A DNA stretch of 64,000 nucleotides. Origin: Eledone cirrhosa. Lineage: Eukaryota. The DNA is taken from positions 3,720,001 through 3,784,000 of the forward strand of contig OZ024761.1 of the NCBI GenBank assembly GCA_964016885.1, in the 5' to 3' direction. The notes below the pieces were generated by a model that was given only the letters and a program-made list of their open reading frames with translations, did no database searches and was not told the origin of the DNA. Both the position numbers and the translations under genes were made by a program. Within the stretch, counting starts at the first letter, position 1; each line of letters begins with the position of its first letter. Below, one piece after another: positions 7,993 to 61,500 of this stretch.

Positions 7993-10900
7993 CACTCTCC
8001 TTCCATTGGTACACCACTCAGTCCCCACAACTCACTCTCCTTCCATTGGTACACCACTCAGTCCCCACAACTCACTCTCCTTCCATTGGTACACCACTCA
8101 GTTCCCACAACTCACTCTCCTTCCATTGGTACACCACTCAGTCCCCACAACTCACTCTCCTTCCATTGGTACACCACTCAGTCCCCACAACTCACTCTCC
8201 TTCCATTGGTACACCACTCAGTCCCCACAACTCACTCTCCTTCCATTGGTACACCACTCAGTCCCCACAACTCACTCTCCTTCCATTGGTACACCATTCA
8301 GTCCCCACAACTCAATCTCCTTCCATTGGTACACCACTCAGTCCCCACAACTCACTCTCCTTCCATTGGTACACCACTCAGTTCCCACAACTCAGTCTCC
8401 TTCCACTGGTACACCACTCAGTTCCCACAACTCACTCTCCTTCCATTGGTACACCACTCAGTCCCCACAACTCAATCTCCTTCCATTGGTACACCACTCA
8501 GTCCCCACAACTCACTCTCCTTCCATTGGTACACCACTCAGTCCCCACAACTCAATCTCCTTCCATTGGTACACCATTCAGTTCCCACAACTCAGTCTCC
8601 TTCCACTGGTACACCACTCAGTCCCCACAACTCACTCTCCTTCCATTGGTACACCACTCAGTCCCCACAACTCACTCTCCTTCCATTGGTACACCATTCA
8701 GTTCCCACAACTCAGTCTCCTTCCACTGGTACACCACTCAGTCCCCACAACTCACTCTCCTTCCATTGGTACACCACTCAGTCCCCACAACTCACTCTCC
8801 TTCCATTGGTACACCACTCAGTCCCCACAACTCACTCTCCTTCCATTGGTACACCACTCAGTCCCCACAACTCACTCTCCTTCCATTGGTACACCACTCA
8901 GTCCCCACAACTCACTCTCCTTCCATTGGTACACCACTCAGTCCCCACAACTCAATCTCCTTCCATTGGTACACCACTCAGTTCCCACAACTCACTCTCC
9001 TTCCATTGGTACACCACTCAGTCCCCACAACTCACTCTCCTTCCATTGGTACACCACTCAGTCCCCACAACTCAATCTCCTTCCATTGGTACACCACTCA
9101 GTCCCCACAACTCACTCTCCTTCCATTGGTACACCACTCAGTCCCCACAACTCACTCTCCTTCCATTGGTACACCACTCAGTCCCACAACTCACTCTCCT
9201 TCCATTGGTACACCACTCAGTCCCCACAACTCACTCTCCTTCCATTGGTACACCACTCAGTCCCCACAACTCACTCTCCTTCCATTGGTACACCACTCAG
9301 TCCCCACAACTCACTCTCCTTCCATTGGTACACCACTCAGTCCCCACAAACTCACTCTCCTTCCATTGGTACACCACTCAGTCCCCACAACTCACTCTCC
9401 TTCCATTGGTACACACACTCAGTCCCCACAACTCACTCTCCTTCCATTGGTACACCACTCAGTCCCCACAACTCACTCTCCTTCCATTGGTACACCACTC
9501 AGTCCCCACAACTCACTCTCCTTCCATTGGTACACCACTCAGTCCCCACAACTCAATCTCCTTCCATTGGTACACCACTCAGTCCCACAACTCACTCTCC
9601 TTCCATTGGTACACCACTCAGTCCCCACAACTCACTCTCCTTCCATTGGTACACCACTCAGTCCCCACAACTCAATCTCCTTCCATTGGTACACCACTCA
9701 GTCCCCACAACTCACTCTCCTTCCATTGGTACACCACTCAGTCCCCACAACTCACTCTCCTTCCATTGGTACACCACTCAGTCCCCACAACTCACTCTCC
9801 TTCCATTGGTACACCACTCAGTCCCCACAACTCACTCTCCTTCCATTGGTACACCACTCAGTCCCCACAACTCACTCTCCTTCCACTGGTACACCACTCA
9901 GTCCCCACAACTCACTCTCCTTCCATTGGTACACCACTCAGTCCCCACAACTCACTCTCCTTCCATTGGTACACCACTCAGTCCCCACAACTCACTCTCC
10001 TTCCATTGGTACACCACTCAGTCCCACAACTCAATCTCCTTCCATTGGTACACCACTCAGTCCCCACAACTCACTCTCCTTCCATTGGTACACCACTCAG
10101 TCCCCACAACTCACTCTCCTTCCATTGGTACACCACTCAGTCCCCACAACTCACTCTCCTTCCATTGGTACACCACTCAGTTCCCCACAACTCACTCTCC
10201 TTCCATTGGTACACCACTCAGTCCCCACAACTCACTCTCCTTCCATTGGTACAACCACTCAGTCCCCACAACTCACTCTCCTTCCATTGGTACACCACTC
10301 AGTTCCCACAACTCACTCTCCTTCCATTGGTACACCACTCAGTCCCCACAACTCACTCTCCTTCCATTGGTACACCACTCAGTCCCCACAACTCACTCTC
10401 CTTCCATTGGTACACCACTCAGTCCCCACAACTCACTCTCCTTCCATTGGTACACCACTCAGTTCCCACAACTCACTCTCCTTCCATTGGTACACCACTC
10501 AGTCCCCACAACTCACTCTCCTTCCATTGGTACACCACTCAGTCCCACAACTCACTCTCCTTCCATTGGTACACCACTCAGTCCCCACAACTCACTCTCC
10601 TTCCATTGGTACACCACTCAGTTCCCCACAACTCACTCTCCTTCCATTGGTACACCACTCAGTCCCCACAACTCACTCTCCTTCCATTGGTACACCACTC
10701 AGTCCCCACAACTCACTCTCCTTCCATTGGTACACCACTCAGTCCCCACAACTCACTCTCCTTCCATTGGTACACCACTCAGTCCCCACAACTCACTCTC
10801 CTTCCATTGGTACAACCACTCAGTCCCCACAACTCACTCTCCTTCCATTGGTACACCACTCAGTCCCCACAACTCACTCTCCTTCCATTGTACACCACTC

Positions 10901-13708
10901 AGTCCCCACAACTCACTCTCCTTCCATTGGTACACCACTCAGTTCCCCACAACTCACTCTCCTTCCATTGGTACACCACTCAGTCCCCACAACTCACTCT
11001 CCTTCCATTGGTACAACCACTCAGTCCCCACAACTCACTCTCCTTCCATTGGTACACCACTCAGTCCCCACAACTCACTCTCCTTCCATTGGTACACCAC
11101 TCAGTCCCCACAACTCACTCTCCTTCCATTGGTACACCACTCAGTCCCCACAACTCACTCTCCTTCCATTGGTACACCACTCAGTCCCCACAACTCACTC
11201 TCCTTCCATGGTACCACTCAGTCCCCACAACTCCTCCTCCATTGGTACACCACTCAGTCCCCACAACTCACTCTCCTTCCATTGGTACACCACTCAGTCC
11301 CCACAACTCACTCTCCTTCCATTGGTACAACACCCACTCAGTCCCCACAACTCACTCTCCTTCCATTGGTACACCACTCAGTCCCCACAACTCACTCTCC
11401 TTCCATTGGTACACCCACTCAGTTCCCCACAACTCACTCTCCTTCCATTGGTACACCACTCAGTCCCCACAACTCACTCTCCTTCCATTGGTACACCACT
11501 CAGTCCCCACAACTCACTCTCCTTCCATTGGTACACCACTCAGTCCCCACAACTCACTCTCCTTCCATTGGTACACCACTCAGTCCCCACAACTCACTCT
11601 CCTTCCATTGGTACACCACTCAGTCCCCACAACTCACTCTCCTTCCATTGGTACACCACTCAGTCCCACAACTCACTCTCCTTCCATTGGTACACCACTC
11701 AGTCCCCACAACTCACTCTCCTTCCATTGGTACACCACTCAGTCCCCACAACTCACTCTCCTTCCATTGGTACACCACTCAGTCCCCACAACTCACTCTC
11801 CTTCCATTGGTACACCACTCAGTCCCCACAACTCACTCTCCTTCCATTGGTACACCACTCAGTCCCCACAACTCACTCTCCTTCCATTGGTACACCACTC
11901 AGTCCCCACAACTCACTCTCCTTCCATTGGTACACCACTCAGTCCCCACAACTCACTCTCCTTCCATTGGTACACCACTCAGTCCCCACAACTCACTCTC
12001 CTTCCATTGGTACACCACTCAGTCCCCACAACTCACTCTCCTTCCATTGGTACACCACTCAGTCCCCACAACTCACTCTCCTTCCATTGGTACACCACTC
12101 AGTCCCCACAACTCACTCTCCTTCCATTGGTACACCACTCAGTCCCCACAACTCACTCTCCTTCCATTGGTACACCACTCAGTCCCCACAACTCACTCTC
12201 CTTCCATTGGTACACCACTCAGTCCCCACAACTCACTCTCCTTCCATTGGTACACCACTCAGTCCCCACAACTCACTCTCCTTCCATTGGTACACCACTC
12301 AGTCCCCACAACTCACTCTCCTTCCATTGGTACACCACTCAGTCCCCACAACTCACTCTCCTTCCATTGGTACACCACTCAGTCCCCACAACTCACTCTC
12401 CTTCCATTGGTACACCACTCAGTCCCCACAACTCACTCTCCTTCCATTGGTACACCACTCAGTCCCCACAACTCACTCTCCTTCCATTGGTACACCACTC
12501 AGTCCCCACAACTCACTCTCCTTCCATTGGTACACCACTCAGTCCCCACAACTCACTCTCCTTCCATTGGTACACCACTCAGTCCCCACAACTCACTCTC
12601 CTTCCATTGGTACACCACTCAGTCCCCACAACTCACTCTCCTTCCATTGGTACACCACTCAGTCCCCACAACTCACTCTCCTTCCATTGGTACACCACTC
12701 AGTCCCCACAACTCACTCTCCTTCCATTGGTACACCACTCAGTCCCCACAACTCACTCTCCTTCCATTGGTACACCACTCAGTCCCCACAACTCACTCTC
12801 CTTCCATTGGTACACCACTCAGTCCCCACAACTCACTCTCCTTCCATTGGTACACCACTCAGTCCCCACAACTCACTCTCCTTCCATTGGTACACCACTC
12901 AGTCCCCACAACTCACTCTCCTTCCATTGGTACACCACTCAGTCCCCACAACTCACTCTCCTTCCATTGGTACACCACTCAGTCCCCACAACTCACTCTC
13001 CTTCCATTGGTACACCACTCAGTCCCCACAACTCACTCTCCTTCCATTGGTACACCACTCAGTCCCCACAACTCACTCTCCTTCCATTGGTACACCACTC
13101 AGTCCCCACAACTCACTCTCCTTCCATTGGTACACCACTCAGTCCCCACAACTCACTCTCCTTCCATTGGTACACCACTCAGTCCCCACAACTCACTCTC
13201 CTTCCATTGGTACACCACTCAGTCCCCACAACTCACTCTCCTTCCATTGGTACACCACTCAGTCCCCACAACTCACTCTCCTTCCATTGGTACACCACTC
13301 AGTCCCCACAACTCACTCTCCTTCCATTGGTACACCACTCAGTCCCCACAACTCACTCTCCTTCCATTGGTACACCACTCAGTCCCCACAACTCACTCTC
13401 CTTCCATGGTACACCACTCAGTCCCCACAACTCACTCTCCTTCCATTGGTACACCACTCAGGTCCCCACAACTCACTCTCCTTCCATTGGTACTACCACT
13501 CAGTCCCCACAACTCACTCTCCTTCCACTGGTACACCACTCAGTCCCCACAACTCACTCTCCTTCCATTGGTACACCACTCAGTCCCCACAACTCACTCT
13601 CCTTCCACTGGTACACCACTCAGTCCCCACAACTCACTCTCCTTCCATTGGTACACCACTCAGTCCCACAACTCACTCTCCTTCCATTGGTACACCACTC
13701 AGTCCCCA
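7993..13708. repeat. 40-bp minisatellite, about 140 copies
   Basis: ctcactctccttccattggtacaccactcagtccccacaa; nearly invariant over 11670-13400. Confidence 0.98.
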
Positions 13709-17891: not shown

Positions 17892-20800
17892 TATACTATG
17901 GTCAGTATAGGAGAATGGTGGGTTAGGTGAGGTATATACTGTGGTCAGTGTAGGAGAATGGTGAGTTAGGTGAGGTATATACTGAGGTCAATGTAGGAGA
18001 ATGGTGAGTTAGGTGAGGTATATACTGTGGTCAGTGTAGGAGAATGGTGGGTTAGGTGAGGTATATACTGTGGTCAGTGTAGGAGAATGGTGAGTTAGGT
18101 GAGGTATATACTGTGGTCAATGTAGGAGAATGGTGGGTTAGGTGAGGTATATACTGTGGTCAGTGTAGGAGAATGGTGAGTTAGGTGAGGTATATACTGT
18201 GGTCAGTGTAGGAGAATGGTGGGTTAGGTGAGCTATATACTGTGGTCAGTGTAGGAGAATGGTGGGTTAGGTGAGCTATATACTGTGGTCAATGTAGGAG
18301 AATTGTGGGATTAGCTGAGCTATATACTTTGGTCAGTGTAAGAGAATGGTGGGTTAGGTGAGGTATATACTGTGGTCAGTGTAGGAGAATGGTGGGTTAG
18401 GTGAGGTATATACTGTGGTCAGTGTAGGAGAATGGTGGGTTAGGTGAGGTATATACTGTGGTCAGTGTAGGAGAATGGTGGGTTAGGTGAGGTATATACT
18501 GTGGTCAGTGTAGGAGAATGGTGAGTTAGGTGAGGTATATACTGTGGTCAGTGTAGGAGAATGGTGGGTTAGGTGAGGTATATACTGTGGTCAGTGTAGG
18601 AGAATGGTGAGTTAGGTGAGGTATATACTGTGGTCAGTGTAGGAGAATGGTGAGTTAGGTGAGGTATATACTGTGGTCAGTGTAGGAGAACGGTGAGTTA
18701 GGTGAGGTATATACTGTGGTCAGTGTAGGAGAATGGTGAGTTAGGTGAGGTATATACTGTGGTCAGTGTAGGAGAATGGTGAGTTAGGTGAGGTATATAC
18801 TGTGGTCAGTGTAGGAGAATGGTGGGTTAGGTGAGGTATATACTGTGGTCAGTGTAGGAGAATGGTGGGTTAGGTGAGGTATATACTGTGGTCAGTGTAG
18901 GAGAATGGTGAGTTAGGTGAGGTATATACTGTGGTCAGTGTAGGAGAATGGTGAGTTAGGTGAGGTATATACTGTGGTCAGTGTAGGAGAACGGTGAGTT
19001 AGGTGAGGTATATACTGTGGTCAGTGTAGGAGAACGGTGAGTTAGGTGAGGTATATACTGTGGTCAGTGTAGGAGAATGGTGGGTTAGGTGAGGTATATA
19101 CTGTGGTCAGTGTAGGAGAATGGTGGGTTAGGTGAGGTATATACTGTGGTCAGTGTAGGAGAATGGTGGGTTAGGTGAGGTATATACTGTGGTTAGTGTA
19201 GGAGAATGGTGAGTTAGGTGAGGTATATACTGTGGTTAGTGTAGGAGAATGGTGAGTTAGGTGAGGTATATACTGTGGTCAGTGTAGGAGAACGGTGAGT
19301 TAGGTGAGGTATATACTGTGGTCAGTGTAGGAGAATGGTGGGTTAGGTGAGGTATATACTGTGGTCAGTGTAGGAGAATGGTGAGTTAGGTGAGGTATAT
19401 ACTGTGGTCAGTGTAGGAGAATGGTGAGTTAGGTGAGGTATATACTGTGGTCAGTGTAGGAGAATGGTGGGTTAGGTGAGGTATATACTGTGGTTAGTGT
19501 AGGAGAATGGTGGGTTAGGTGAGGTATATACTGTGGTTAGTGTAGGAGAATGGTGAGTTAGGTGAGGTATATACTGTGGTTAGTGTAGGAGAATGGTGAG
19601 TTAGGTGAGGTATATACTGTGGTTAGTGTAGGAGAATGGTGGGTTAGGTGAGGTATATACTGTGGTCAGTGTAGGAGAATGGTGGGTTAGGTGAGGTATA
19701 TACTGTGGTTAGTGTAGGAGAATGGTGAGTTAGGTGAGGTATATACTGTGGTTAGTGTAGGAGAATGGTGAGTTAGGTGAGGTATATACTGTGGTTAGTG
19801 TAGGAGAATGGTGAGTTAGGTGAGGTATATACTGTGGTCAGTGTAGGAGAACGGTGAGTTAGGTGAGGTATATACTGTGGTCAGTGTAGGAGAATGGTGA
19901 GTTAGGTGAGGTATATACTGTGGTCAGTGTAGGAGAATGGTGGGTTAGGTGAGGTATATACTGTGGTCAGTGTAGGAGAATGGTGGGTTAGGTGAGGTAT
20001 ATACTGTGGTCAGTGTAGGAGAATGGTGAGTTAGGTGAGGTATATACTGTGGTCAGTGTAGGAGAATGGTGGGTTAGGTGAGGTATATACTGTGGTTAGT
20101 GTAGGAGAATGGTGAGTTAGGTGAGGTATATACTGTGGTTAGTGTAGGAGAATGGTGAGTTAGGTGAGGTATATACTGTGGTTAGTGTAGGAGAATGGTG
20201 AGTTAGGTGAGGTATATACTGTGGTCAGTGTAGGAGAACGGTGAGTTAGGTGAGGTATATACTGTGGTCAGTGTAGGAGAATGGTGGGTTAGGTGAGGTA
20301 TATACTGTGGTCAGTGTAGGAGAATGGTGAGTTAGGTGAGGTATATACTGTGGTCAGTGTAGGAGAATGGTGAGTTAGGTGAGGTATATACTGTGGTCAG
20401 TGTAGGAGAATGGTGGGTTAGGTGAGGTATATACTGTGGTCAGTGTAGGAGAATGGTGGGTTAGGTGAGGTATATACTGTGGTCAGTGTAGGAGAACGGT
20501 GGGTTAGGTGAGGTATATACTGTGGTCAGTGTAGGAGAATGGTGAGTTAGGTGAGGTATATACTGTGGTCAGTGTAGGAGAACGGTGAGTTAGGTGAGGT
20601 ATATACTGTGGTCAGTGTAGGAGAATGGTGAGTTAGGTGAGGTATATACTGTGGTCAGTGTAGGAGAATGGTGAGTTAGGTGAGGTATATACTGTGGTCA
20701 GTGTAGGAGAACGGTGAGTTAGGTGAGGTATATACTGTGGTCAGTGTAGGAGAATGGTGGGTTAGGTGAGGTATATACTGTGGTCAATGTAGGAGAATGG

Positions 20801-21835
20801 TGAGTTAGGTGAGGTATATACTGTGGTCAGTGTAGGAGAATGGTGAGTTAGGTGAGGTATATACTGTGGTCAGTGTAGGAGAATGGTGAGTTAGGTGAGG
20901 TATATACTGTGGTCAGTGTAGGAGAATGGTGGGTTAGGTGAGGTATATACTGTGGTCAGTGTAGGAGAACGGTGGGTTAGGTGAGGTATATACTGTGGTC
21001 AGTGTAGGAGAACGGTGGGTTAGGTGAGGTATATACTGTGGTCAGTGTAGGAGAATGGTGAGTTAGGTGAGGTATATACTGTGGTCAGTGTAGGAGAATG
21101 GTGGGTTAGGTGAGGTATATACTGTGGTCAGTGTAGGAGAATGGTGGGTTAGGTGAGGTATATACTGTGGTCAGTGTAGGAGAATGGTGGGTTAGGTGAG
21201 GTATATACTGTGGTCAGTGTAGGAGAATGGTGGGTTAGGTGAGGTATATACTGTGGTCAGTGTAGGAGAATGGTGGGTTAGGTGAGGTATATACTGTGGT
21301 CAGTGTAGGAGAACGGTGAGTTAGGTGAGGTATATACTGTGGTCAGTGTAGGAGAACGGTGGGTTAGGTGAGGTATATACTGTGGTCAGTGTAGGAGAAT
21401 GGTGGGTTAGGTGAGGTATATACTGTGGTCAGTGTAGGAGAATGGTGGGTTAGGTGAGGTATATACTGTGGTCAGTGTAGGAGAATGGTGGGTTAGGTGA
21501 GGTATATACTGTGGTCAGTGTAGGAGAATGGTGAGTTAGGTGAGGTATATACTGTGGTCAGTGTAGGAGAATGGTGGGTTAGGTGAGCTATATACTGTGG
21601 TCAGTGTAGGAGAATGGTGAGTTAGGTGAGGTATATACTGTGGTCAGTGTAGGAGAATGGTGGGTTAGGTGAGGTATATACTGTGGTCAGTGTAGGAGAA
21701 TGGTGAGTTAGGTGAGGTATATACTGTGGTCAGTGTAGGAGAATGGTGGGTTAGGTGAGGTATATACTGTGGTCAGTGTAGGAGAATGGTGGGTTAGGTG
21801 AGGTATATACTGTGGTCAGTGTAGGAGAATGGTGT
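17892..21835. repeat. 43-bp G-rich minisatellite, about 90 copies
   Basis: gtggtcagtgtaggagaatggtg[a/g]gttaggtgaggtatatact. Confidence 0.98.
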
Positions 21836-25104: not shown

Positions 25105-27400
25105 TATCATCATCATTTTACGTCCGCTTCTCCTTGTTTGCAAGGGTGGGACGGGTCCTATTAAGCACAGCATTTCTCCATTCATCACAGTCCTTTGTCA
25201 TCTCCTCTGTGATCTCCAGCGATCTGAGGTCTGTTCTCACCACCTCCGCCCATGTTTTTTGTGGTCTTCTTCTACTGTGTCCTCCTTCTACTGGGATTTC
25301 TTGGCACCTCTTTACCCAGCAGTTATCCTCCTTGCGCATCACATATCCATACCATCTCAGTCTTCTCGCCTGCACACTACAACTTATCCCTCTTATACAC
25401 AGTTTCTCTCTCAATTCATCTATACCTGATTGTTCACACACATTGACATTGCACATCCAACAGAACATGTTTGCTTCATTTCTCTCCAGCCATCGCATAT
25501 CCTCTACAGTAGCTGCCCATGTCTCACTACCATGTAGCATCGCGCATCTCACACAGGCATCATATAACCGGCCTTTCATTCGTAGGGAGAAACCCTTCTT
25601 TGTCAGCAGCTCCATAAACTTCTTCCAACCCGTCCTTATTCTAGATATTATGGCCTCGGAACCCCTCCCTTGCTAATCTGATCGCTTAGGTATCGGAAGC
25701 TATCACCACCTCTATAGATCCTACCTGCATTTGAAAAATGTGTCTATCACTGCGATTACTACTGCAAACTTTCCCTGTACATCTACTGCATATGTATTTT
25801 TCCTTACCTGTTAGTTTGCCTGCTATCCCACTACATCTCTTGTGTACCAAAGATCTGCATTGTGTACATTTTATGGAATTTATGCCAACTCCTTAACAAA
25901 ATATTGAACATGGCCATTTCCCTGATGGAATCGGAGTATTGTCCTCTCTTCTACTTATCAACACTTTTGTCTTAGCTATGTTCACTCTCAGTCCTCTTGA
26001 TTCCAACTGCTGTTTCCATAGCCAGAATTTCTCTAGCTCCTCTACTGAGTCTGCTATAAGAACCAGATCGTCAGCATAGAGAAGTTCCCAAGGGCAGCCA
26101 GTCTTAAACTCCTTTGTTATGGCTTGGAGGACTATAATGAACACGAGTGGGCTGAGGACCAAACCCTGATGTACTCCTACTTGTATCTGGAATTCTTCCC
26201 TAAACTCCATTCCTACTCTCACTTTACTGACAGCACGCCTGTACATAGCTTGCACTGTCCTCACAAGCCATTCCTCAACGCCTAGTTTCCTTAGGGACCA
26301 CCAGATGACAGATCGGGGTACCCTATCAAAGGCCTTCTCTAGGTCAACAAAAGCTAAGTATAGTGGCTTATTCTTCTCTAAGAACTTCTCTTGTAGTTGT
26401 CTCACTAAGAAGAGGGCATCTGTTGTACTTTTCCCAGGCACAAAACCAAAATGCATCTCATCTAATTTGACCCTTTCTCTAATTAGTTGCGCTAATATTC
26501 TTTCTGCCTGATCCATCAGTTTTATGTCCCTATAATTGCACCTCTCCAGATCATCCCCTTTACCTTTGTAGCAATTTATGAGAATACTGCTGCACCAATC
26601 TTTGGGTATGACTCCATCATATATAGCCTGATTGACTATGCGTGCAACTAGTTTAGGCGCCTACTTCTCCTGAAGCCTTCAGCATCTCAGCAACTGTCCC
26701 CAATGGTCCAGCGGCCTTACCACTTTTCATTTCCTTAATTGCCTCTTTGATAATATAGTTGCCAATCTCAATAGCTGGTCCCTCTGTCGGGTCTACTGGG
26801 GATAGTTTCTCTCTCTCCCATTCGTTCTCCACATTCATCAGTCTCTCATAATGACATTTCCAGGCCTCCTTTTTCTGAGCATCAGTGACACTAAGTACAC
26901 CAGCATCATTCCGGACACACTTATCTCCAACAACATCTTCATGTACACTGACACACTGCACGTCTCTGATCTTCCCGTCGCAGAACATTGGCAAACCTCC
27001 TACTCTCAGCCTGCCCGCGTGCTAAGTACACCTGACGTCTAGCTTCTCTCTTAGCGACTGTATATCCTTCTCTACTTCCACCATTTTTCCAAGCCTTCCA
27101 TGCTAGTCTTTTGTCTCTAATGGCCTTATCTACTGTGCTGTTCCACCACCAGGTCACTCTCTGTCTGGTCGGAGCTCTGCTCCAGCCACAAGTTTCATCA
27201 GTAGCCTGCAGTAAGTTGTCACGTTAGAAATTCCAGTTATCATCTATGTCACACACTCTAAATCGTCTTCTTTTTCATCATCCACATCTTGAAGGGCTTT
27301 CCTAAATTTATATTTTAGTGAAAGGTCTTTTAGTTTCTAGACCTTCCTTTTTCACACCTTCCTGTATGTCTCATTTTGTCTCTTGATTATTGAGATGTCA
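25105..27400 (-). mobile_element. Degenerate RTE-type LINE (RT region to 3' tail), antisense in intron 6
   Basis: Fragments TWWWN, KAAGP, FGFVPGKSTTDA, FVDLEKAFDRVP, GVHQG..LSP, LLYADDLVL, MLHGSETW, RLRWYG; frameshifts and stops. Confidence 0.94.
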
Positions 27401-30298: not shown

Positions 30299-30960
30299 AT
30301 GTTCTATGTTAGCATGTTGGTGGAGTACTGATGAGTCTTTTCTATCTTGGAGTTCTCGCCAGTGTTCATTTAATCGTTTAAATCATTTAAACGATTAAAT
30401 GAACACTGGCGAGAGCTTCAAAATAAAAAGACTCATCAGTACTCCACCAACATGCTAAAATAGAACATAAGGGCAAATTAGAGAACATAGAAATAAAAAT
30501 AAAATCTACACACAGAAAAGACGCAATGTTTAGACAAATCACAGAGGCAATAAACATAAATGAACTCCAACCAAAATTAAATAGAAAACATGAATGGAAT
30601 AGCAACATCACAACTTACAATTAAGGACAAAATGAAAACACACACACATAGAACAAACAACTAACTAGTAACATGTAAATAAACAAATAAAAACACACAC
30701 AGACACCCGGATGTAACACATGCGCAAACTAAGCACACAACACACATAAAAACAAGATGGCGTAGGACAGAACAAAGGAAAGGCACAAAACAAAGAAAAG
30801 AATCCCCAGTCACTGATGAGGTCACAGAATGTGTGACGAAAGAACTTTGACAATATATAAACAACCATCCGGTTGTGGAACCAACCAACCAACCGAAAGT
30901 TATAAATTTCTTAAAAATTTATAATTTAATTTAACTTATAATAAATTGGAGTGAAAGCAA
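30299..30960 (+). mobile_element. Penelope-like element 3' remnant (GIY-YIG C-terminus) with 5' inversion and hammerhead
   Basis: KRLNEHWRELQ / DSSVLHQHAKIEHKGKLENIEIKIKSTHRKDAMFRQITEAININELQPKLNRKHEWN (stop at 30624, one frameshift); 85-bp inverted arm 30299-30383. Confidence 0.75.
30809..30851 (+). ncRNA. Minimal type I hammerhead ribozyme
   Basis: gtca-CTGATGA-g-gtcaca gaatg tgtgac-GAAA-g aa c-TT|tgac. Confidence 0.65.
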
Positions 30961-31119
30961 CTGGTGCGTGTGTTTCTTATTGGCAACATGACCCTCCCAA
31001 AGTATAACAATATCGGTTTCAACACACGTTTTCAGATAAAGAATCTTGCTAAACAAATTCAAAAACGAAATATCTATATATATATATATATATAGATATT
31101 ATACATATAATATATATCC

Positions 31120-31151
<32 letters not shown>

Positions 31152-31181
31152 ATTGAGGCACATGGCTTAGTGGTTAGAGAG

Positions 31182-31512
31182 AGGCACATGGCTTAGTGGT
31201 TAGAGCATTGGCCTTGCAATCGAAAGGTTGTGAGTTCAATTCTCAGACTGGGTGATGTGTTGTTTTCTTGAGCAAGACACTTTATTTCACATTGCTCCAG
31301 TTTACTCAGCTGTAGAAATGAGATGATAGGGACTGGGATCCATATCATTCCACTGCAAAGTGGTCGTGGAGGTGCCACGGCAAAAAAGCACCCAGCACTC
31401 ACTGTAAATGAGGTTGGTGTTAGGAAGGGCATCCAGCTGTAGAAATCAAGCCAGAATCAGTTCTCATCCCACCTTTGCAAGCAGGGAAAAGCGGACGTAA
31501 AATGAAATGATG
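31182..31512 (+). mobile_element. tRNA-derived SINE with CORE-like body and LINE-like tail
   Basis: A-box tggcttagtgg, B-box gagttcaattc, cttgagcaagacactttatttcac; tail ggacgtaaaatga; first 26 bp duplicated at 31156. Confidence 0.85.
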
Positions 31513-31685
31513 AATTGAATAAACAAGAGAGATGAACACTAATATAAACATACATGTGGTCGAATCGTAAAGACCAAGTTTGCTAGGGTGAAAAAATACT
31601 AACTAGAGCAATATGGTTTGTCAGAATTAATTTTAAATATTAAATTAAGAAAAATAACAGACCTATATTGGGCAAATCGCCTGGT

Positions 31686-31767
31686 AACAACTAGACGGTA
31701 TTGGAGACTGTTTCGCAACATCTTATTAAGTGAAGTTCACACTCTTCTCTGCTCATCGGTAGTTGTT
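31686..31767 (-). ncRNA. Type I hammerhead ribozyme, variant copy (CCGAUGA core, one stem III mismatch)
   Basis: Reverse complement of 32175-32256 with two substitutions. Confidence 0.68.
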
Positions 31768-32174
31768 GAGAAATTAGTGCTCCTTCCACTTCTAAAAATA
31801 TTAGAGATTGAATTGTTTGCGATAGGAACTATCGCACGTGTTTTCAGAACCCAGCTTGTCTCGAAATTCCCTGCCACTAAAAATAGCAGCCTGGCTGACA
31901 GGACGTTAAAATTAGCTCTACATGATGTAGCCGACAAATATATAGTGAGTTAGAAACTCAGAGTAGTCTCTTACAATTAAATAGCTCTAAGTTTCTAACT
32001 CACTATATATTTGTCGGCTCCATCATGTAGAGCTAATTTTAACGTCCTGTCAGCCAGGCTGCTATTTTTAGCGGCAGGGAATTTCGAGACGAGCTGGGTT
32101 CTGAAAACACGTGCGATAGTTCCTATCGCAAACAATTCAATCTCTAATATTTTTAGAAGGATCACTAATTTCTC

Positions 32175-32256
32175 AACAACTACTGATGAGCAGAGAAGAG
32201 TGTGAACTTCACTTAATAAGATGTTGCGAAACAGTCTCCAATACTGTCTAGTTGTT
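32175..32256 (+). ncRNA. Type I hammerhead ribozyme, canonical core
   Basis: aacaacta-CTGATGA-gcag[long loop]ttgc-GAAA-cagt ctccaat actg-TC|tagttgtt; 8-bp stem I, 5-bp stem III, GUC at 32248. Confidence 0.88.
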
Positions 32257-32597
32257 ACCAGGCGATTTGCCCAATATAGATCTGTTATTTTTCTTAATTT
32301 AATATTTAAAACTAATTCTGACAAACCATATTGCTGTAATTAGTATTTTTTCACCCTAGCAAACTTGGTCTTTACTATTCGAACACATGTATGTTTATAT
32401 TAGTGTTCATCTCTCTTGTTTATTCAATTATATTGTACGGCTCCGAAAACTTTTTTCTTAGAGCTATTTAATTGTAAGAGACTACTCTGAGTTTCTAACT
32501 CACTGTGTATATATATAGATAGATATTATACATATAATATATATCCATATAATATATATATAAGAAGAAATTAAAAGATGGTTAAGAAAGTTCCATG

Positions 32598-35070: not shown

Positions 35071-35445
35071 AGGCACATGGCTTAGTGGTTAGAGCATTGG
35101 GCTTGCAATCAAAAGGTAGTGAATTCAATTCTTGGACTGGGTGATGTGTTGTTTCCTTGAGCAAGACACTTTATTTCACATTGCTCCAGTTTACTCAGCT
35201 GTAGAAATGAGATGATAGGGACTGGGGTCCCTATCATTCCACTGCAAAGTGGTCGTGGAGGTGCCACGGGAAAAAAAGTGCCCAGCACTCACTGTAAATG
35301 AGGTTGGTGTTAGGAAGGGCATCCAGCTGTAGAAATCAAGCCAGAATCAGTTCCTGTATGAGCAAGACAAGGTCAGCTGACTGAACACTGCCCACAACAG
35401 GACAATCCGCCTAATCTATGCTAGCGTGGAAGAATGGACGTAAAA
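35071..35445 (+). mobile_element. tRNA-derived SINE, same family as 31182
   Basis: Highly similar head and body. Confidence 0.85.
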
Positions 35446-35500
35446 AAAAAATAGATATACATATAATATATATCCATATAATATATATATATAGATATTA

Positions 35501-35547: not shown

Positions 35548-37914
35548 AAGGCATATTTTTGGGAAGAATATACCCCACAGCATAGGTTAGTCGTTAGTGA
35601 TATCTCAGTAAGCAAGAGATGGAATGAGACATACAGGAAGGTGTGGAGTAGAAAGGTCTGGAAGCTAAAAGACCTTTCACTAAAATACAAATTTAGGAAA
35701 GCCCTTCAAGATGTGTATGACGAAAAAGAAGACGATTTAGAGACGTATGACATAGATAATAACTGGAATTTGTTACGTGACAACTTACTGCAGGTGACTG
35801 ATGAAACTTGTGGTTGGAGCTCAGAGAGTGACCTGGTGGTGGAACAGCACAGTAGATAAGGCCATTAGAGACAAAAGACTAGCATGGAAGGCTTGGAAAA
35901 AGGGTGGGAGAAGGGAAGAATATACAACCGCTAAGAGAGAAGCTAGACGTCAGGTGTACTTAGCACACAGGGAGGCTGAGAGTAGGAAGTTTGCCAGTGT
36001 TCTGCGGCGGGAAGATCAGAGGCGTGCGGTGTTCCACATTGCAAGGCAGTGTGTCAATGCAAATCAGGATGTTGTTGGAGATAAGTGTGTCCAGAATGAT
36101 GCCAGTGTACTTAGTGTCACGAATGGAAATGTCATTATGAGAGACTGATGAATGTGGAGAACGAATGGGAGAGAGAGAAATTACCCTCAGTAGATCCGAC
36201 AGAGGGACCAGCTATTGAGATTGACGAATATAGGGTCCAAGAGGCGATTAAGGAAATGAAAAATGGTAAGGCTGCTGGACCGTCGGGAATAGTTGCTGAG
36301 ATGCTGAAGGCATCAGGGGACGTAGGCACTAAACTGGTTGGACGCATCATCAATCAGGCTATATATGGTGGTGTCATACCCAAAGACTGGTGCAGCAGTA
36401 TTCTCATAAATTGCTACAAAGATAAAGGGGATGCTCTGGAGAGGAGCAATTATAGGGGTATAAAACTGATGCATCAGGTTATGAAAGTGGCAGAAAGGAT
36501 ATTAGCACAACTAATTAGAGAAAGGGTCAAACTAGATGAGATGCAGTTTGGTTTTGTGCCTGGGAAGAGTACAACAGATGGCCTCTTCTTGGTGAGACAA
36601 TTGCAAGAGAGGTTCTTAGAGAAAAATAAGCCACTATACTTAGCCTTTGCTGACCTAGAGAAGGCCTTTGATAGGGTACCTCTATCTGTCATCTGGTGGT
36701 CCCTAAGGAAACTAGGTGTTGAGGAATGGCTTGTGAGGACAGTGCAAATTTGTACAGAGGTACTGTCAGTAAAGTCAGGGTAGGAATGGAGTTTAGTGAG
36801 AAATTCCAGATACAAGTAGGAGTACATCAAGGTTCGGTCCTCAGCCCGCTCTTGTTCATTATAGTCCTCCAAGCCATAACAGAGCAGTTTTAGACTGGCT
36901 GTCCATGGGAACTTCTCTATGCTGATGATCTGGTTCTTATAGCAGAATCAGTAGAGGAGCTAGAGAATACATTCTGGCTATGGAAACAGAAGTTGGAAGC
37001 AAGAGGACTGAGAGTGAACCTAGCTAAGACAAAAGTGTTGATGAGTAGAAAAGAGGACAAAACTCTGATTCCGTCAGGGAAATGGCCATGTTCGATATGC
37101 AGAAAAGGAACTGGCAAAAATTCTATAAAATGCACACAATGCAGATTCTGGGTACACAAGAGATGTAGTGGGATAGCAGGCAAACTAACAGGTAGGGAGA
37201 AATATGTTTGCAGTAGATGTACAGGAAAATTAGACAGTAGAAGTCGCATTGATAGACACATTTTTCAAATGCAGGAGGGTGTTATAGAAGTGGTTGATAG
37301 CTTCCGGGACCTAGGAGATCAGATTAGCATGGGAGGGGGGTGTTCTGAGGCCATAGTATCTAGAATAAGGATGGGTTGGAAGAAGTTTAGGGAGCTGCTT
37401 CCTCTGCTGATGAAGAAGGGTTTCTCCATGCGTGCAAAAGGCCGGTTATATGATGCCTGTGAGAGGAGCGCGATGCTGTATGGTAGTGAGACATGGGCAG
37501 CAACTGCAGAGGATATGCGACGGCTGGAGAGAAATGAGGCAAGCATGCTCCATTGGATGTGCAGTGTCAATGTGCGTGAACAGCCGAGCATGGAACTGTT
37601 GGGAGAGAAACTGTGTCTGAGAGGGATAGAATGTAGTGTACAGGAGAGGAGACTGAGGTGGTATGGACATGTGATGCGCATGGAGGATGACCGATGGGTG
37701 AAGAAGTGCCAAAAAATGCCAGTTGAAGGAAGAAGTGGTAGAGGTAGACCACGAAAAACATGGGTGGAGGTGGTGAGAGCAGACCTCAGATCGCTGAAGC
37801 TCACGGAGGAGATGACGAAGGACCGTGACAAGTGGAGAGATGCTGTGTGCTGAATAAGATCCGTCCCACCCTTGCGAGCAGGGAAGAGCGGACGTAAAAT
37901 GATGATGATGATGA
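35545..37914 (+). mobile_element. Degenerate RTE-type LINE with PHD-like Cys cluster after the RT
   Basis: NYRGIKL, QFGF, DLEKAFD, GVHQGSVLSP, YADD, WPCSICRKG...C..C..WVHKRC...C..C, RGRPRKTW; (GAT)n tail. Confidence 0.95.
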
Positions 37915-41661: not shown

Positions 41662-44600
41662 CACATGTCTGTACCAGTGCAGTCTTCTCTCTTGAACATC
41701 ACATCACATGTCTGTACCAGTGCAGTCTTCTCTCTTGTACATCACATCACATGTCTGTACCAGTGCAGTCTTCTTCTTGTACACCACATCACATCTCTGT
41801 ACCAGTGCAGTCTTCTCTCTTGTACACCACATCACATGTCTGTACCAGTGCAGTTTTCTCTCTTGTACATCACATCACATGTCTGTACCAGTGCAGTCTT
41901 CTCTCTTGTACATCACATCACATGTCTGTACCAGTGCAGTCTTCTCTCTTGTACACCACATCACATCTCTGTACCAGTGCAGTCTTCTCTCTTGTACATC
42001 ACATCACATGTCTGTACCAGTGCAGTCTTCTCTCTTGTACACCACATCAGATGTCTGTACCTATGCAGTCTTCTATCTTGTACACCACATCACATGTCTG
42101 TACCAGTGCAGTCTTCTCTCTTGTATACCACATCACATGTCTGTACCAGTGCAGTCTTCTCTCTTGTACATCACATCACATGTCTGTACCAGTGCAGTCT
42201 TCTCTCTTGTACACCACATCACATGTCTGTACCAGTGCAGTCTTATCTCTTGTACACCGCATCATATGTCTGTACCTATGCAGTCTTCTATCTTGTACAC
42301 CACATCACATGTCTGTACCTATGCAGTCTTCTATCTTGTACACCGCATCATATGTCTGTACCTATGCAGTCTTCTCTCTTGTACAACACATCACATCTCT
42401 GTACCAGTGCAGTCTTCTCTCTTGTACATCACATCACATGTCTGTACCAGTGCAGTCTTCTCTCTTGTACACCACATCACATGTCTGTACTTATGGAGCC
42501 TTCTCTCTTGTACATCACATCACATGTCTGTACCAGTGCAGTCTGCTCTCTTGTACACCACATCACATGTCTGTACCAGTGCAGTCTTCTCTCTTGTACA
42601 TCACATGTCTGTACAAGTGCAGTCTTCTCTCTTGTACACCACATCACATGTCTGTACCAGTGCAGTCTTCTCTCTTGTACATCACATCACATGTCTGTAC
42701 CAGTGCAGTCTTCTCTCTTGCACACCACATCACATGTCTGTACCAGTGCAGTCTTCTCTCTTGTACACCACATCACATGTCTGTACCTATGCAGTCTTCT
42801 ATCTTGTACACCACATCACATGTCTGTACCAGTGCAGTCTTCTCTCTTGTACACCACATCACAAGTCTGTACCAGTGCAGTCTTCTCTCCTGTACACCAC
42901 ATCACATGTCTGTACCAGTGCAGTCTTCTCTCCTGCACACCACATCACATGTCAGTTCCAGTGCAGTCTTCTCTCCTGCACACCACATCACATGTCTGTA
43001 CCAGTGCAGTCTTCTCTCTTGTACACCACATCACATGTCTGTACCAGTGCAGTCTTCTCTCCTTTACACCACATCACATGTCTGTACCAGTGCAGTCTTC
43101 TCTACTGTACACCACATCACATGTCTGTACCAGTGCAGTCTTCTCTCCTTTACACCACATCACATGTCTGTACCAGTGCAGTCTTCTCTCCTGCACACCA
43201 CATCACATGTCTGTACCAGTGCAGTCTTCTCTCCTGCACACCACATCACATGTCTGTACCAGTGCAGTCTTCTCTCTTGTACACCACATCACATGTCTGT
43301 ACCAGTGCAGTCTTCTCTACTGTACACCACATCACATGTCAGTTCCAGTGCAGTCTTCTCTCCTGCACACCACGTCACATGTCTGTACCAGTGCAGTCTT
43401 CTCTCCTGCACACCACATCACATGTCTGTACCAGTGCAGTCTTCTCTCCTGCACACCACATCACATGTCAGTTCCAGTGCAGTCTTCTCTCCTGCACACC
43501 ACATCACATGTCTGTACCAGTGCAATCATCTCTACTGTACACCACATCACATGTCTGTACCAGTGCAGTCTTCTCTCCTGCACACCACATCACATGTCAG
43601 TTCCAGTGCAGTCTTCTCTCCTGCACACCACATCACATGTCTGTACCAGTGCAGTCTTCTCTACTGTACACCACATCACATGTCTGTACCAGTGCAGTCT
43701 TCTCTCCTGCACACCACATCACATGTCAGTTCCAGTGCAGTCTTCTCTCCTGCACACCACATCACATGTCTGTACCAGTGCAGTCTTCTCTACTGTACAC
43801 CACATCACATGTCTGTACCAGTGCAGTCTTCTCTCCTGCACACCACATCATATGTCTGTACCAGTGCAGTCTTCTCTACTGTACACCACATCATATGTCT
43901 GTACCAGTGCAGTCTTCTCTCTTGTACACCACATCACATGTCTGCACCAGTGCAGTCTTCTCTACTGTACACCACATCACATGTCTGTACCAGTGCAGTC
44001 TTCTCTCCTGCACACCACATCACATGTCTGCACCAGGGCAGTCTTCTCTCTTGTACACCACATCACATGTCTGTACCAGTGCAGTCTTCTCTCCTGCACG
44101 CCACATCACATGTCTGTACCAGTGCAATCTTCTCTATTGTACACCACATCACATGTCAGTTCCAGTGCAGTCTTCTCTCCTGCACACCACATCACATGTC
44201 TGTACCAGTGCAGTCTTCTCTACTGTACACCACATCACATGTCTGTACCAGTGCAGTCTTCTCTCCTGCACACCACATCACATGTCTGTACCAGTGCAAT
44301 CATCTCTACTGTACACCACATCACATGTCAGTTCCAGTGCAGTCTTCTCTCCTGCACACCACATCACATGTCTGTACCAGTGCAGTCTTCTCTCCTGCAC
44401 ACCACATCACATGTCTGTACCACTGCAGTCTTCTCTCCTGCACACCACATCACATGTCTGTACCAGTGCAATCTTCTCTACTGTACACCACATCACATGT
44501 CAGTTCCAGTGCAGTCTTCTCTCCTGCACACCACGTCACATGTCTGTACCAGTGCAGTCTTCTCTCCTGCACACGACATCATATGTCAGTTCCAGTGCAG

Positions 44601-45010
44601 TCTTCTCTCCTGCACACCACATCACATGTCTGTACCAGTGCAGTCTTCTCTCCTGCACACCACATCACATGTCAGTTCCAGTGCAGTCTTCTCTCCTGCA
44701 CACCACATCACATGTCTGTACCACTGCAGTCTTCTCTCCTGCACACCACATCACATGTCAGTTCCAGTGCAGTCTTCTCTCCTGCACACCACATCACATG
44801 TCTGTACCAGTGCAGTCTTCTCTCCTGCACACCACATCACATGTCTGTACCACTGCAGTCTTCTCTCCTGCACACCACATCACATGTCTGTACCAGTGCA
44901 GTCTTCTCTCCTGCACACCACATCACATGTCTGTACCAGTGCAGTCTTCTCTCCTGCACACCACATCACATGTCTGTACCAGTGCAGTCTTCTCTCCTGC
45001 ACACCACATC
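41662..45010. repeat. 43-bp LINE-derived minisatellite, about 78 copies
   Basis: acatgtctgtaccagtgcagtcttctctc[t/c]tg[t/c]acaccacatc. Confidence 0.97.
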
Positions 45011-45118
45011 AAATTCCTCTTAAACCCAGCTTCTCCCTCAACTCACCCAAGCTCTGCCTTTCTCTCACATTAACATTTCACATCCAATGGAGCATGGTTG
45101 CTTCATTTCTCTAGCCTA

Positions 45119-58564: not shown

Positions 58565-61500
58565 GAGATAGATATGGTGTCTGGTGAGATATAGTGTCTG
58601 GTGAGATATGGTGTCTGGTGAGATATAGTGTCTGGTGAGATATGGTGTCTGGTGAGATATGGTGTCTGGTGAGATATAGTGTCTGGTGAGATATAGTGTC
58701 TGGTGAGATATAGTGTCTGGTGAGATATGGAGTCTGGTGTGATATGGTGTCTGGTGTGATATGGTGTCTGGTGAGATATGGTGTCTGGTGAGATATAGTG
58801 TCTGGTGAGATATGGTGTCTGGTGAGATATAGTGTCTGGTGAGATATGGTGTCTGGTGTGATATGGTGTCTGGTGAGATATGGTGTCTGGTGAGATATGG
58901 TGTCTGGTGAGATATAGTGTCTGGTGAGATATAGTGTCTGGTGAGATATAGTGTCTGGTGAGATATAGTGTCTGGTGAGATATGGTGTCTGGTGAGATAT
59001 AGTGTCTGGTGAGATAAATATAGTGTCTGGTGAGATATGGTGTCTGGTGAGATATGGTGTCTGGTGAGATATAGTGTCTGGTGAGATAAATATAGTGTCT
59101 GGTGAGATATGGTGTCTGGTGAGATAAAATGTCTGGTGTGATATGGTGTCTGGTGAGATAGATATAGTGTCTGGTGAGATATGGTGTCTGGTGGGATAGA
59201 TATGGTGTCTGGTGAGATATGGTGTCTGGTGAGATATAGTGTCTGGTGAGATATGGTGTCTGGTGTGATATGGTGTCTGGTGAGATATAGTGTCTGGTGA
59301 GATATGGTGTCTGGTGAGATATGGTGTCTGGTGAGAAGTGGTGTCTGGTGTGATATAGTGTCTGGTGTGATATGGTGTCTGGTGAGATATGGTGTCTGGT
59401 GAGATATGGTGTTTGGTGTGATATGGTGTCTGGTGAGATATAGTGTCTGGTGAGATATGGTGACTGGTGTGATATAGTATCTGCTGTGATATGGTGTCTG
59501 GTGTGATATGGTGTCTGGTGGGATATGCTGTCTGGTGTGATATGGTGTCTGGTGAGATATGGTGTCTGGTGAGATATGGTGTCTGGTGAGATATGGTGTC
59601 TGGTGAGATATGGTGTCTGGTGTGATATAGTGTCTAGTTAGATATGGTGTCTGGTGAGATATAGTGTCTGGTGTGATATGGTGTCTGGTGAGATATAGTG
59701 TCTGTTGAGATATGGTGTCTGGTGAGATATGGTGTCTGGTGTGATGTGGTGTCTGGTGAGATATGGTGTCTGGTGTGATATGGTGTCTGGTGAGAAAGAT
59801 ATGGTGTCTAGTGTGATATAGTGTCTGGTTAGATATGGTGTCTGGTGTGATATGGTGTCTGGTGTGATATGGTGTCTAGTGAGATATGGTGTCTGGTGTG
59901 ATATAGTGTCTGGTGAGATATGGTGTCTGGTGAGATATGGAGTCTGGTGTGATATGGAGTCTGGTGTGATATGGAGTCTGGTGTGATATGGTGTCTGGTG
60001 TGATATGGTGTCTGGTGAGATATGGTGTCTGGTGTGATATGGTGTCTGGTGTGATATGGTGTCTGGTGAGATATGGTGTCTAGTGAGATATGGTGTCTGG
60101 TGAGATAGATATGGTTTCTGGTGAGATATGGTGCCAGGTGTGATATGATGTCTGGTGAGATATGGTGTCTGGTGTGATATGGTGTCTGGTGAGATATGGT
60201 GTTTGGTGAGATAGATATGGTGTCTGGTGAGAAAGATATGGTGTCTAGTGTGATATAGTGTCTGGTTAGATATGGTGTCTGGTGTGATATGGTGTCTGGT
60301 GTGATATGGTGTCTAGTGAGATATGGTGTCTGGTGTGATATAGTGTCTGGTGAGATATGGTGTCTGGTGAGATATGGAGTCTGGTGTGATATGGAGTCTG
60401 GTGTGATATGGTGTCTGGTGTGATATGGTGTCTGGTGAGATATGGTGTCTGGTGTGATATGGTGTCTGGTGTGATATGGTGTCTGGTGAGATATGGTGTC
60501 TAGTGAGATATGGTGTCTGGTGAGATAGATATGGTTTCTGGTGAGATATGGTGCCAGGTGTGATATGATGTCTGGTGAGATATGGTGTCTGGTGTGATAT
60601 GGTGTCTGGTGAGATATGGTGTTTGGTGAGATAGATATGGTGTCTGGTGAGATATAGTGTCTGGTGAGATATAGTGTCTGGTGAGATATGGTGTCTGGTG
60701 TGATATGCTGTCTGGTGAGATATAGTGTCTGGTGTGATATGGTGTCTGGTGTGATATGGTGTCTGGTGAGATATAGTGTCTGGTGTGATATAGTGTCTGG
60801 TGAGATATGGTGTCTGGTGTGATATGCTGTCTGGTGAGATATAGTGTCTGGTGTGATATGGTGTCTGGTGTGATATGGTGTCTGGTGAGATATGGTGTCT
60901 GGTGAGATATAGTGTCTGGTGAGATATGGTGTCTGGTGAGATATAGTGTCTGGTGAGATATGGTGTCTGGTGTGATATGGTGTCTGGTGAGATATGGTGT
61001 CTGGTGAGATATGGTGTCTGGTGAGATATAGTGTCTGGTGAGATATAGTGTCTGGTGAGATATGGTGTCTGGTGAGATATAGTGTCTGGTGAGATAAATA
61101 TAGTGTCTGGTGAGATATGGTGTCTGGTGAGATATGGTGTCTGGTGAGATATAGTGTCTGGTGAGATAAATATAGTGTCTGGTGAGATATGGTGTCTGGT
61201 GAGATAAAATGTCTGGTGTGATATGGTGTCTGGTGAGATAGATATAGTGTCTGGTGAGATATGGTGTCTGGTGGGATAGATATGGTGTCTGGTGAGATAT
61301 GGTGTCTGGTGAGATATAGTGTCTGGTGAGATATGGTGTCTGGTGTGATATGGTGTCTGGTGAGATATAGTGTCTGGTGAGATATGGTGTCTGGTGAGAT
61401 ATGGTGTCTGGTGAGAAGTGGTGTCTGGTGTGATATAGTGTCTGGTGTGATATGGTGTCTGGTGAGATATGGTGTCTGGTGAGATATGGTGTTTGGTGTG

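What the first reader, a model, noticed from the sequence alone, without database searches (positions are those of the whole stretch)
31513..32504. 500-nt hammerhead-containing monomer integrated as inverted, circularly permuted arms: candidate circular-RNA retroelement (retrozyme)
Seen: the right arm starts and ends with gtttctaactcact (31991 and 32491, period exactly 500) and holds a canonical type I hammerhead (32175-32256, GUC site). The left arm is the antisense of the same unit but begins about 34 nt earlier in the cycle, with sequence found at the END of the right arm (32457-32490). No recognisable protein is encoded. Known: metazoan non-LTR retrozymes are short non-coding units with type I hammerheads that yield circular RNAs, and PLE insertions often show inverted, permuted pLTRs. 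Inference: this is a copy of a circular or concatemeric 500-nt ribozyme RNA mobilised in trans by a PLE reverse transcriptase. I do not know of such a family described in cephalopods.
Basis: partly seen in the sequence, partly recalled or inferred. Interest (0 to 1): 0.9.

Follow-up and report, generated by a model that had tools for sequence, protein, structure and literature searches.

The report
Hammerhead mini-element hitchhiking on Penelope retrotransposons
This is one copy of an abundant, protein-free 500-base repeat with a conserved hammerhead-ribozyme fold; it shares two small predicted hairpins at its insertion ends with young Penelope-type jumping genes in the same genome, which likely copy it from both target strands at once, possibly from an RNA circle.

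Summary
Observation confirmed, except that 'exactly 500' is an accident of a private 6-nt deletion. The unit belongs to a dispersed, ORF-less family (2,228 first-look candidates) with sister families of 547 and 560 nt. All carry a type I hammerhead whose stems covary, and ORF-free tandems reach 4 units.

Permutation is not random: 3' ends fall at two fixed sites (S1, S2) about 80 nt apart, mostly in (TA)n, each just before a predicted GCUC/GAGC hairpin. Head-to-head insertions pair S1 with S2 in 57 of 59 classifiable cases. A very young autonomous Hydra-type Penelope-like element in the same genome has the same two hairpins, ends and pairing, so Hydra-clade RT is the likely mobiliser.

Verdict: a new non-LTR retrozyme family, a known kind. 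A circular template is plausible (about 55%) but unshown: there are no RNA data, and a circle-specific stall test failed. This locus has one hammerhead per strand and cannot itself yield a monomer. The scan noted related PLE-type non-coding insertions in other genomes. Searches found no paper describing the shared hairpins or the pairing rule.

The parts
31513..31991 (-). Inverted arm, unit 467->500->1->439; its 3' end is within 4 nt of family site S1 and abuts the GAT-type tail of a SINE
31991..32504 (+). Direct arm, one unit plus 14 nt; its 3' end is within 6 nt of family site S2 and abuts a TA-rich tract
31985..31991 (.). 7-nt microhomology at the head-to-head junction, supplied by an imperfect inverted repeat within the unit (unit 467-473 and 495-501)
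32175..32256 (+). Type I hammerhead with intact core; predicted cut after C32248
   Evidence: sequence; covariation across families
31686..31767 (-). Damaged hammerhead copy (CCGAUGA, stem III mismatch)
32429..32433 (+). S1: fixed 3' end of inverted arms in the family (TATAT, unit 443)
32439..32465 (+). Hairpin 1 (GGCTC...GAGCT), 6 nt after S1; candidate RT-binding signal
32434..32504 (+). 'Tail' between S1 and S2 (about 77 nt in the family)
32016..32034 (+). Hairpin 2 (GGCTC...GAGCT), 6 nt after the S2 position of the cycle (TATATAT ending at 32010)
31155..31512 (+). Left flank: tRNA-headed SINE-like repeat with a GAT-type tail (target, not part of the element)
   Evidence: Rfam tRNA 31187-31250 at 29.9 bits; paralog at 35071-35276
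32505..32562 (.). Right flank: TA-rich tract; the same tract follows similar tails at 35450 and 37914 with no insertion; no target-site duplication discernible

Best explanation
The locus is one insertion of a dispersed, protein-free ~505-nt repeat family with a conserved hammerhead fold, likely a non-LTR retrozyme copied into the genome by the reverse transcriptase-endonuclease of Hydra-clade Penelope-like elements. Shown: copy number, no ORF, hammerhead covariation, two fixed 3' ends, the hairpin after each, the S1+S2 pairing rule, and the same ends and hairpins in an autonomous family. Inferred: (1) loci with two hammerheads are transcribed, self-cleave to a monomer and are ligated to a circle (about 0.55); (2) the PLE protein, probably a dimer, binds the two hairpins and cuts TA-rich DNA; (3) one target strand primes at S2 and the other at S1, using TATAT microhomology; (4) each cDNA runs a variable distance, through the cleavage site and for up to four units; (5) the two cDNA ends are joined, often at short microhomology, giving a head-to-head repeat with the tail on one side only. 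This copy is likely a dead end.
For: Copy number: 2,228 first-look candidates, 40 scored, full-length matches 88-95% identical. No ORF: sequence after unit 500 returns to unit 1; ORF-free tandems reach 1.8-2.6 units in A, 3.3 in B and 4.0 in C. Ends: 129 of 148 aligned pieces in 84 loci end at S1 or S2. Pairs: 41 S1+S2, 2 S2+S2, 0 S1+S1 and 12 with an unclassified end among 55; 16, 0, 0 and 9 among 25 in 38 further loci. Seven of 41 pairs, this one included, are not nested, so neither arm was copied from the other. The two arms here are sisters in a tree of 30 copies (support 0.95). Hammerhead: all 7 stem I pairs change on both sides across 7 sequences of 5 families; score 0.575, 0 of 500 shuffles, slid controls at most 0.12. 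No 5' end lies within 5 nt of the cut site in 129 and 53 arms, and 88 of the 129 cross it. The four units of L283 share 18 non-majority alleles, and 16 of 18 variable sites are singletons. Partner: family G has an 844-codon open frame with RT and GIY-YIG motifs, ~5-kb tandem unit and pLTR copies 99-100% identical. It ends just before two ACGGCTC...GAGCT hairpins, with 8 clear S1+S2 pairs and no other pairing. G and H show the Hydra diagnostics RWR, DKA/DKT, CxCx5C, CxxC and CxH. H and I carry similar hairpins before their start codons. The Neptune-like pLTR of L061 lacks them. The anole PLE protein cuts and extends both strands, starts at two RNA sites and is predicted dimeric (PMC11167929).
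Against: No direct parent was found. The A, B and C units match none of 122 G/H/I loci beyond the hairpins, apart from L260, which was not inspected, so the partner rests on a short motif and matching anatomy. Pfam found no family for the G protein; the Hydra assignment is by motifs, without a tree. In vitro the anole PLE does not need hammerhead cleavage and mainly uses unprocessed RNA. A circle-specific prediction, a stall after one full turn, held in the first B sample (5 of 12, P=0.0025) but not in fresh B (2 of 15) or in C (1 of 17, 2 of 14). Family A folds no better as a circle than shuffles (z -0.45 and -1.09, 25 shuffles). Only 11 of 30 A copies pass a strict core test. 32 of 41 pairs are nested and so also fit fold-back. 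Samples are top-scoring hits, biased to long S2-ending arms.
Confidence: 0.7

Rival explanations
1. Same element and partner, but the template is an uncleaved linear multimer from tandem source loci, or the RT jumps between RNA molecules. The hammerhead only frees or ends transcripts, and no circle is used.
For: Hammerhead cleavage is dispensable for insertion in vitro (PMC11167929). Autonomous family G also forms tandems, of 5-kb units. Tandem sources of 2-4 units exist. The one-turn stall test did not replicate.
Against: Hammerhead stems are kept by compensatory change in families 62-78% alike, yet copies read through the cut site. Upstream/downstream differences within loci rarely recur (1 recurrent among 80 in B, 1 among 73 in C; 10 among 144 in A), which argues against a few old multimeric masters but not against fresh ones.
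Confidence: 0.3
2. The inverted arm is made by fold-back self-priming, one arm copied from the other, as proposed for Penelope head-to-head repeats.
For: Junction overlaps of 1-9 nt are common and here come from an internal inverted repeat; 32 of 41 pairs are nested; proposed in PMC3846280 (passages).
Against: 7 of 41 pairs, this locus included, are not nested. S1 also ends single long arms (L018, L108, L123, L307). The second arm ends at S1 almost without exception.
Confidence: 0.12
3. The arms are ordinary 5'-truncated pLTRs of an ORF-bearing PLE and not a self-contained unit.
For: Same insertion anatomy as autonomous PLEs (PMC8557442); unit-like pieces lie beside PLE ORFs in 5 of 48 GIY-YIG loci.
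Against: After the tail the cycle restarts with no ORF, up to four times. The five neighbours are separate insertions beyond TA tracts, not continuous with those ORFs.
Confidence: 0.04
4. The mobiliser is a Neptune-like or other non-Hydra PLE, and the shared hairpin is convergent.
For: Such elements are abundant here (10,597 GIY-YIG candidates) and also end in TA tracts; the shared motif is only about 10 specified bases.
Against: The motif occurs twice, at the same distance from both ends, in the A, B and C units and in G; the inspected Neptune-like pLTR lacks it.
Confidence: 0.1

Closest known systems
Animal non-LTR retrozymes (Cervera and de la Pena 2020, PMC7229834, passages and section 14 read; review PMC7761336, passages; Li, Clavereau and Pollet 2026 preprint 10.64898/2026.07.22.740005, parts 1-3 of 5 read)
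   Same: Short, low-GC, non-coding tandem unit with one type I hammerhead; monomers to short multimers; proposed to be non-autonomous PLE derivatives; known in a mussel.
   Different: Units of 500-560 nt (expressed circles were ~170-400 nt; the preprint reports families up to 972 bp). Mostly dispersed 0.3-2-unit insertions with inverted arms and a tail. A conserved cis motif links them to a PLE clade, whereas the 2020 review states that no such motif was seen. Circles were not shown here.
Endonuclease-bearing PLE insertions with inverted pLTR and tail (PMC8557442, passages and section 11; PMC3846280, passages; PMC11167929, parts 1-2 of 4)
   Same: 5' truncation, partial tandem, inverted 5' copy, tail on one end, (TA)n targets, two RT start sites bounding the tail.
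   Different: No ORF; tail of 77-94 nt rather than 30-40; each start site is followed by a duplicate hairpin; the two arms use different sites almost without exception.
Hydra-clade PLEs (Craig et al. 2021, PMC8557442 section 11)
   Same: Families G and H have RW(R), DK(T/A), CxCx5C, CxxC and CxH motifs, a C-terminal endonuclease and TA targets; G has a canonical hammerhead core.
   Different: G's unit is ~5 kb (described ones are generally under 3 kb); no ORF-less hammerhead dependants of Hydra were found in the papers searched.
LINE-1 twin priming (recalled; only search listings seen)
   Same: Both target strands prime cDNA on the RNA and the products join head-to-head, often at microhomology.
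   Different: In L1 the second site is variable and the two parts do not overlap; here both sites are fixed and the arms overlap.

Membership tests
Non-LTR retrozyme | Type I hammerhead in each unit | tested here: met
   Core and three stems present; covariation across 5 families. Rfam models did not score it.
Non-LTR retrozyme | Non-coding unit of a few hundred nt, GC under 45-50% | tested here: met
   500-560 nt, GC 32-35%, no ORF
Non-LTR retrozyme | Head-to-tail tandems with two or more hammerheads | tested here: met
   11 of 129 arms cross the cut site twice; 4-mer L283. Not met at this locus itself.
Non-LTR retrozyme | Many genomic copies, no true LTRs | tested here: met
   PBS and PPT were not searched
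Non-LTR retrozyme | Highly self-paired monomer | tested here: inconclusive
   Circular fold z: A -0.45 and -1.09, B -5.8, C -4.1, 25 shuffles; B and C have a long stem III extension
Non-LTR retrozyme | Self-cleavage of the RNA | not testable with these tools
   needs in vitro transcription
Non-LTR retrozyme | Expressed linear and circular monomer RNA | not testable with these tools
   needs RNA from the organism
PLE-type insertion | 5' truncation, partial tandem, inverted 5' copy, one-sided tail | tested here: met
PLE-type insertion | Insertion into (TA)n or AT-rich DNA | tested here: met
   flanks printed; the left end here lies in a GAT-type tail
Autonomous PLE (the unit itself) | RT-endonuclease ORF between pLTRs | tested here: not met
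Hydra clade (partner families G, H) | RWK-type, DKT, CxCx5C, CxxC and CxH motifs, C-terminal GIY-YIG | tested here: met
   RWR in place of RWK, DKA in G
Hydra clade (partner families G, H) | Placement with reference Hydra RTs in a tree | not tested
   no named reference sequences were on hand

The most novel reading that the evidence does not exclude
A twin-hairpin RNA signal, shared by Hydra-clade PLEs and their circular ribozyme parasites, positions a dimeric RT so that the two target strands prime at two fixed sites on an RNA circle. One rule would then explain the PLE tail, the head-to-head repeat and the partial tandem, and would name the enzyme that spreads animal retrozymes.
Probability: 0.4. 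Interest if true: 0.82.

Novelty: new member of a known kind. Interest (0 to 1): 0.6.

Why it matters
Which enzyme mobilises animal retrozymes, and how Penelope-like elements build head-to-head repeats with a one-sided tail, are both stated as open in the papers read (PMC7761336; PMC8557442). This genome offers a 500-nt substrate, a candidate cis signal kept across families only 62-78% alike, a near-strict pairing rule, and very young partner copies with intact frames, so both questions become direct bench tests. Thousands of such insertions also leave inverted repeats that could form double-stranded RNA (inference).

Tried and rejected
Rfam scan: no hammerhead at E<=1; only miRNA-model hits on the palindromes and one tRNA. 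RNA: no RNA holder listed. Three runs of unknown kind, one sample, laid as contigs, showed only related copies and say nothing on expression. One-turn stall as a circle signature: not replicated. Pile-up of 5' ends at the hammerhead cut, expected for a cleaved linear template: 0 of 129 and 0 of 53 within 5 nt, though family A has six ends between -9 and +14. Parent among Neptune-like and other PLEs: 48 loci, none sharing a pLTR; only 150 of 10,597 candidates were scored and 47 of those fetched (one of the 48 loci was an unrelated stretch). Parent among Hydra-type G, H, I: hairpins only. A genome-wide motif count (7 hits vs 0-5 in shuffles) was uninformative. My simple hammerhead scanner missed the minimal variants. 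One search mixed in unrelated loci and was redone; the family I translation was out of frame and is not used. Literature searches for hammerhead+octopus, retrozyme+cephalopod, Penelope+twin priming, non-autonomous+Penelope-like+hammerhead+Hydra and a stem-loop/initiation query found no description of this family or motif. The Octopus vulgaris repeat paper has no mention of ribozymes (passages). Subscription papers, Repbase/Dfam and supplements were not seen and may hold these families.

Full report
Observation. The right arm repeats its first 14 bases 500 nt later. The left arm is the antisense of unit positions 467->500->1->439, with 12 substitutions and a 6-nt indel. The arms meet head to head with a 7-nt overlap. 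A type I hammerhead with intact core lies at 32175-32256; the left copy has two damaging changes. Rfam does not score it. The period of exactly 500 comes from a deletion private to this arm.

Family. A genome search gave 2,228 candidates; 40 were scored, with full-length matches 88-95% identical. In 29 distinct loci most copies end at unit position 14-20, inverted upstream arms end at 443, both usually run into (TA)n, and 5' ends vary. The two arms of this locus are sisters in a tree of 30 copies, which fits one insertion event followed by decay. Pieces found beside other PLEs led to sister families B (560 nt; 3,512 candidates) and C (547 nt; 2,861 candidates; top copies 95-99% identical), which are 62-78% alike to each other and to A. 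Further relatives D, E and F also appeared. All tandems seen are ORF-free: up to 2.6 units in A, 3.3 in B and 4.0 in C.

Hammerhead. Across 7 sequences from 5 families, all 7 stem I pairs change on both sides and 94% of cells pair. No shuffle of 500 reaches the covariation score, and slid controls fall to 0.12 or less. The structure was drawn by me on these sequences, so the controls are somewhat favourable. The fold has been under selection; cleavage itself is untested. Many genomic copies are decayed (11 of 30 pass a strict core test).

Two ends and a pairing rule. In 84 loci, 129 of 148 aligned pieces end at one of two sites, S1 and S2, 77-85 nt apart. Head-to-head insertions combine S1 with S2 in 41 cases, S2 with S2 in 2 and S1 with S1 in none, with 12 unclassified. 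In 38 further loci the counts were 16, 0, 0 and 9. Sampling favours S2-ending arms, so the fair statement is that opposite an S2 arm one finds S1 in 57 of 59. Seven of 41 pairs, this one included, are not nested, so both arms were templated separately. Each site is followed within about 6-12 nt by a predicted hairpin closed by GCUC/GAGC in A, B and C.

Partner. Forty-eight loci from a GIY-YIG search held Neptune-like and other PLEs with their own pLTRs. A chance hairpin hit in one of them led to family G. Its terminal 291 nt is 99-100% identical in 40 of 40 scored copies, it has a ~5-kb tandem unit and an 844-codon open frame, and many long open frames exist genome-wide. G ends just before two ACGGCTC...GAGCT hairpins 94 nt apart and shows 8 clear S1+S2 pairs among 32 partly overlapping loci. 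Its protein has 1,308 homologues at E<=1e-30, one named from Argonauta hians at 42%, no Pfam hit, and the Hydra-clade motifs of PMC8557442. Two more Hydra-type families, H and I, carry related hairpins before their start codons. None matches the units beyond the hairpins, so the clade is indicated but the exact partner is not.

Mechanism. Purified anole PLE protein cuts and extends both strands of AT-rich DNA, starts at two internal RNA sites bounding the tail, and is predicted to be a dimer (PMC11167929). Combined with the pairing rule, the simplest model is two-site twin priming directed by the two hairpins, followed by end joining; junction overlaps of 1-9 nt predominate in A. The template must span more than one unit and cross the cut site: 88 of 129 arms cross it, and none of 182 starts within 5 nt of it. 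A religated circle reconciles this with a selected ribozyme, and the star-like 4-mer L283 fits. Against the circle: cleavage is dispensable in vitro, G makes tandems too, a one-turn stall did not replicate, and A is not unusually self-paired. I put the circle at about 0.55. This locus, with one hammerhead per strand inside a long inverted repeat, is most likely a dead-end product.

Known and new. Non-LTR retrozymes are described, including in a mussel, and a 2026 preprint derives them from PLE pLTRs in vertebrates. Inverted arms, tails and TA targets are standard PLE features. The element is therefore a new member of a known kind. Not found in five targeted searches: a cephalopod family, the shared twin hairpin, or the pairing rule. 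A 2020 review says retrozyme repeats show no motif pointing to their helper. Earlier scan notes describe related PLE-type non-coding insertions in other genomes, including ribozyme-free tandems (unchecked AI notes), and nothing with this sequence or in this genome. The host was not identified by any tool.

Verdict. Real, ordinary in class, and useful in mechanism: interest 0.6.

Noticed in passing
window 30299-31072: A second repeated element next door: short inverted arm plus a ~680-nt direct arm ending in a TA tract, with a minimal hammerhead-like core at 30813. It matches many fetched loci at 83-92%. Probably another PLE-type insertion.
   Followed up: partly
L169, L170, L181-L210 (family G): Very young Hydra-type PLE with many long open frames, tandems of ~5 kb, an N/G-rich insert between RT and endonuclease, and a 3' UTR over 2 kb.
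   Followed up: partly
L215 (family H), 900-1500: Hydra-type family with a 710-aa ORF; a long TA-rich stretch lies between its hammerhead-like region and the hairpin before the start codon, possibly an intron or an insertion.
   Followed up: no
L079 and L102 (families B, C): Hammerheads with a 2-bp stem III base, an internal loop and then a helix of over 20 bp. B has the core variant UUGAUAA; family D has CAGAAGA.
   Followed up: partly
L061 pLTR and 3' UTRs among L031-L060: Neptune-like PLEs carry minimal hammerheads, several with a UUGANAA core; L061 is a complete pLTR-ORF-pLTR copy.
   Followed up: no
window 31082, 32509, 35466, 37914: The same irregular TA-rich motif recurs four times after SINE or LINE tails, suggesting local duplication or co-transfer.
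   Followed up: no
window 35560-37900 and 26000-26900: Two related RT-like LINE remnants on opposite strands (RTE-type by recall).
   Followed up: no
window 7993-13708, 17892-21834, 41662-45011, 58570-63991: Long homogeneous minisatellite arrays with units of 40, 43, 43 and 17 nt.
   Followed up: no
family C loci L099-L118: 5' ends of long arms cluster at unit positions 265-307 (8 of 19 loci), possibly an RT pause site.
   Followed up: no
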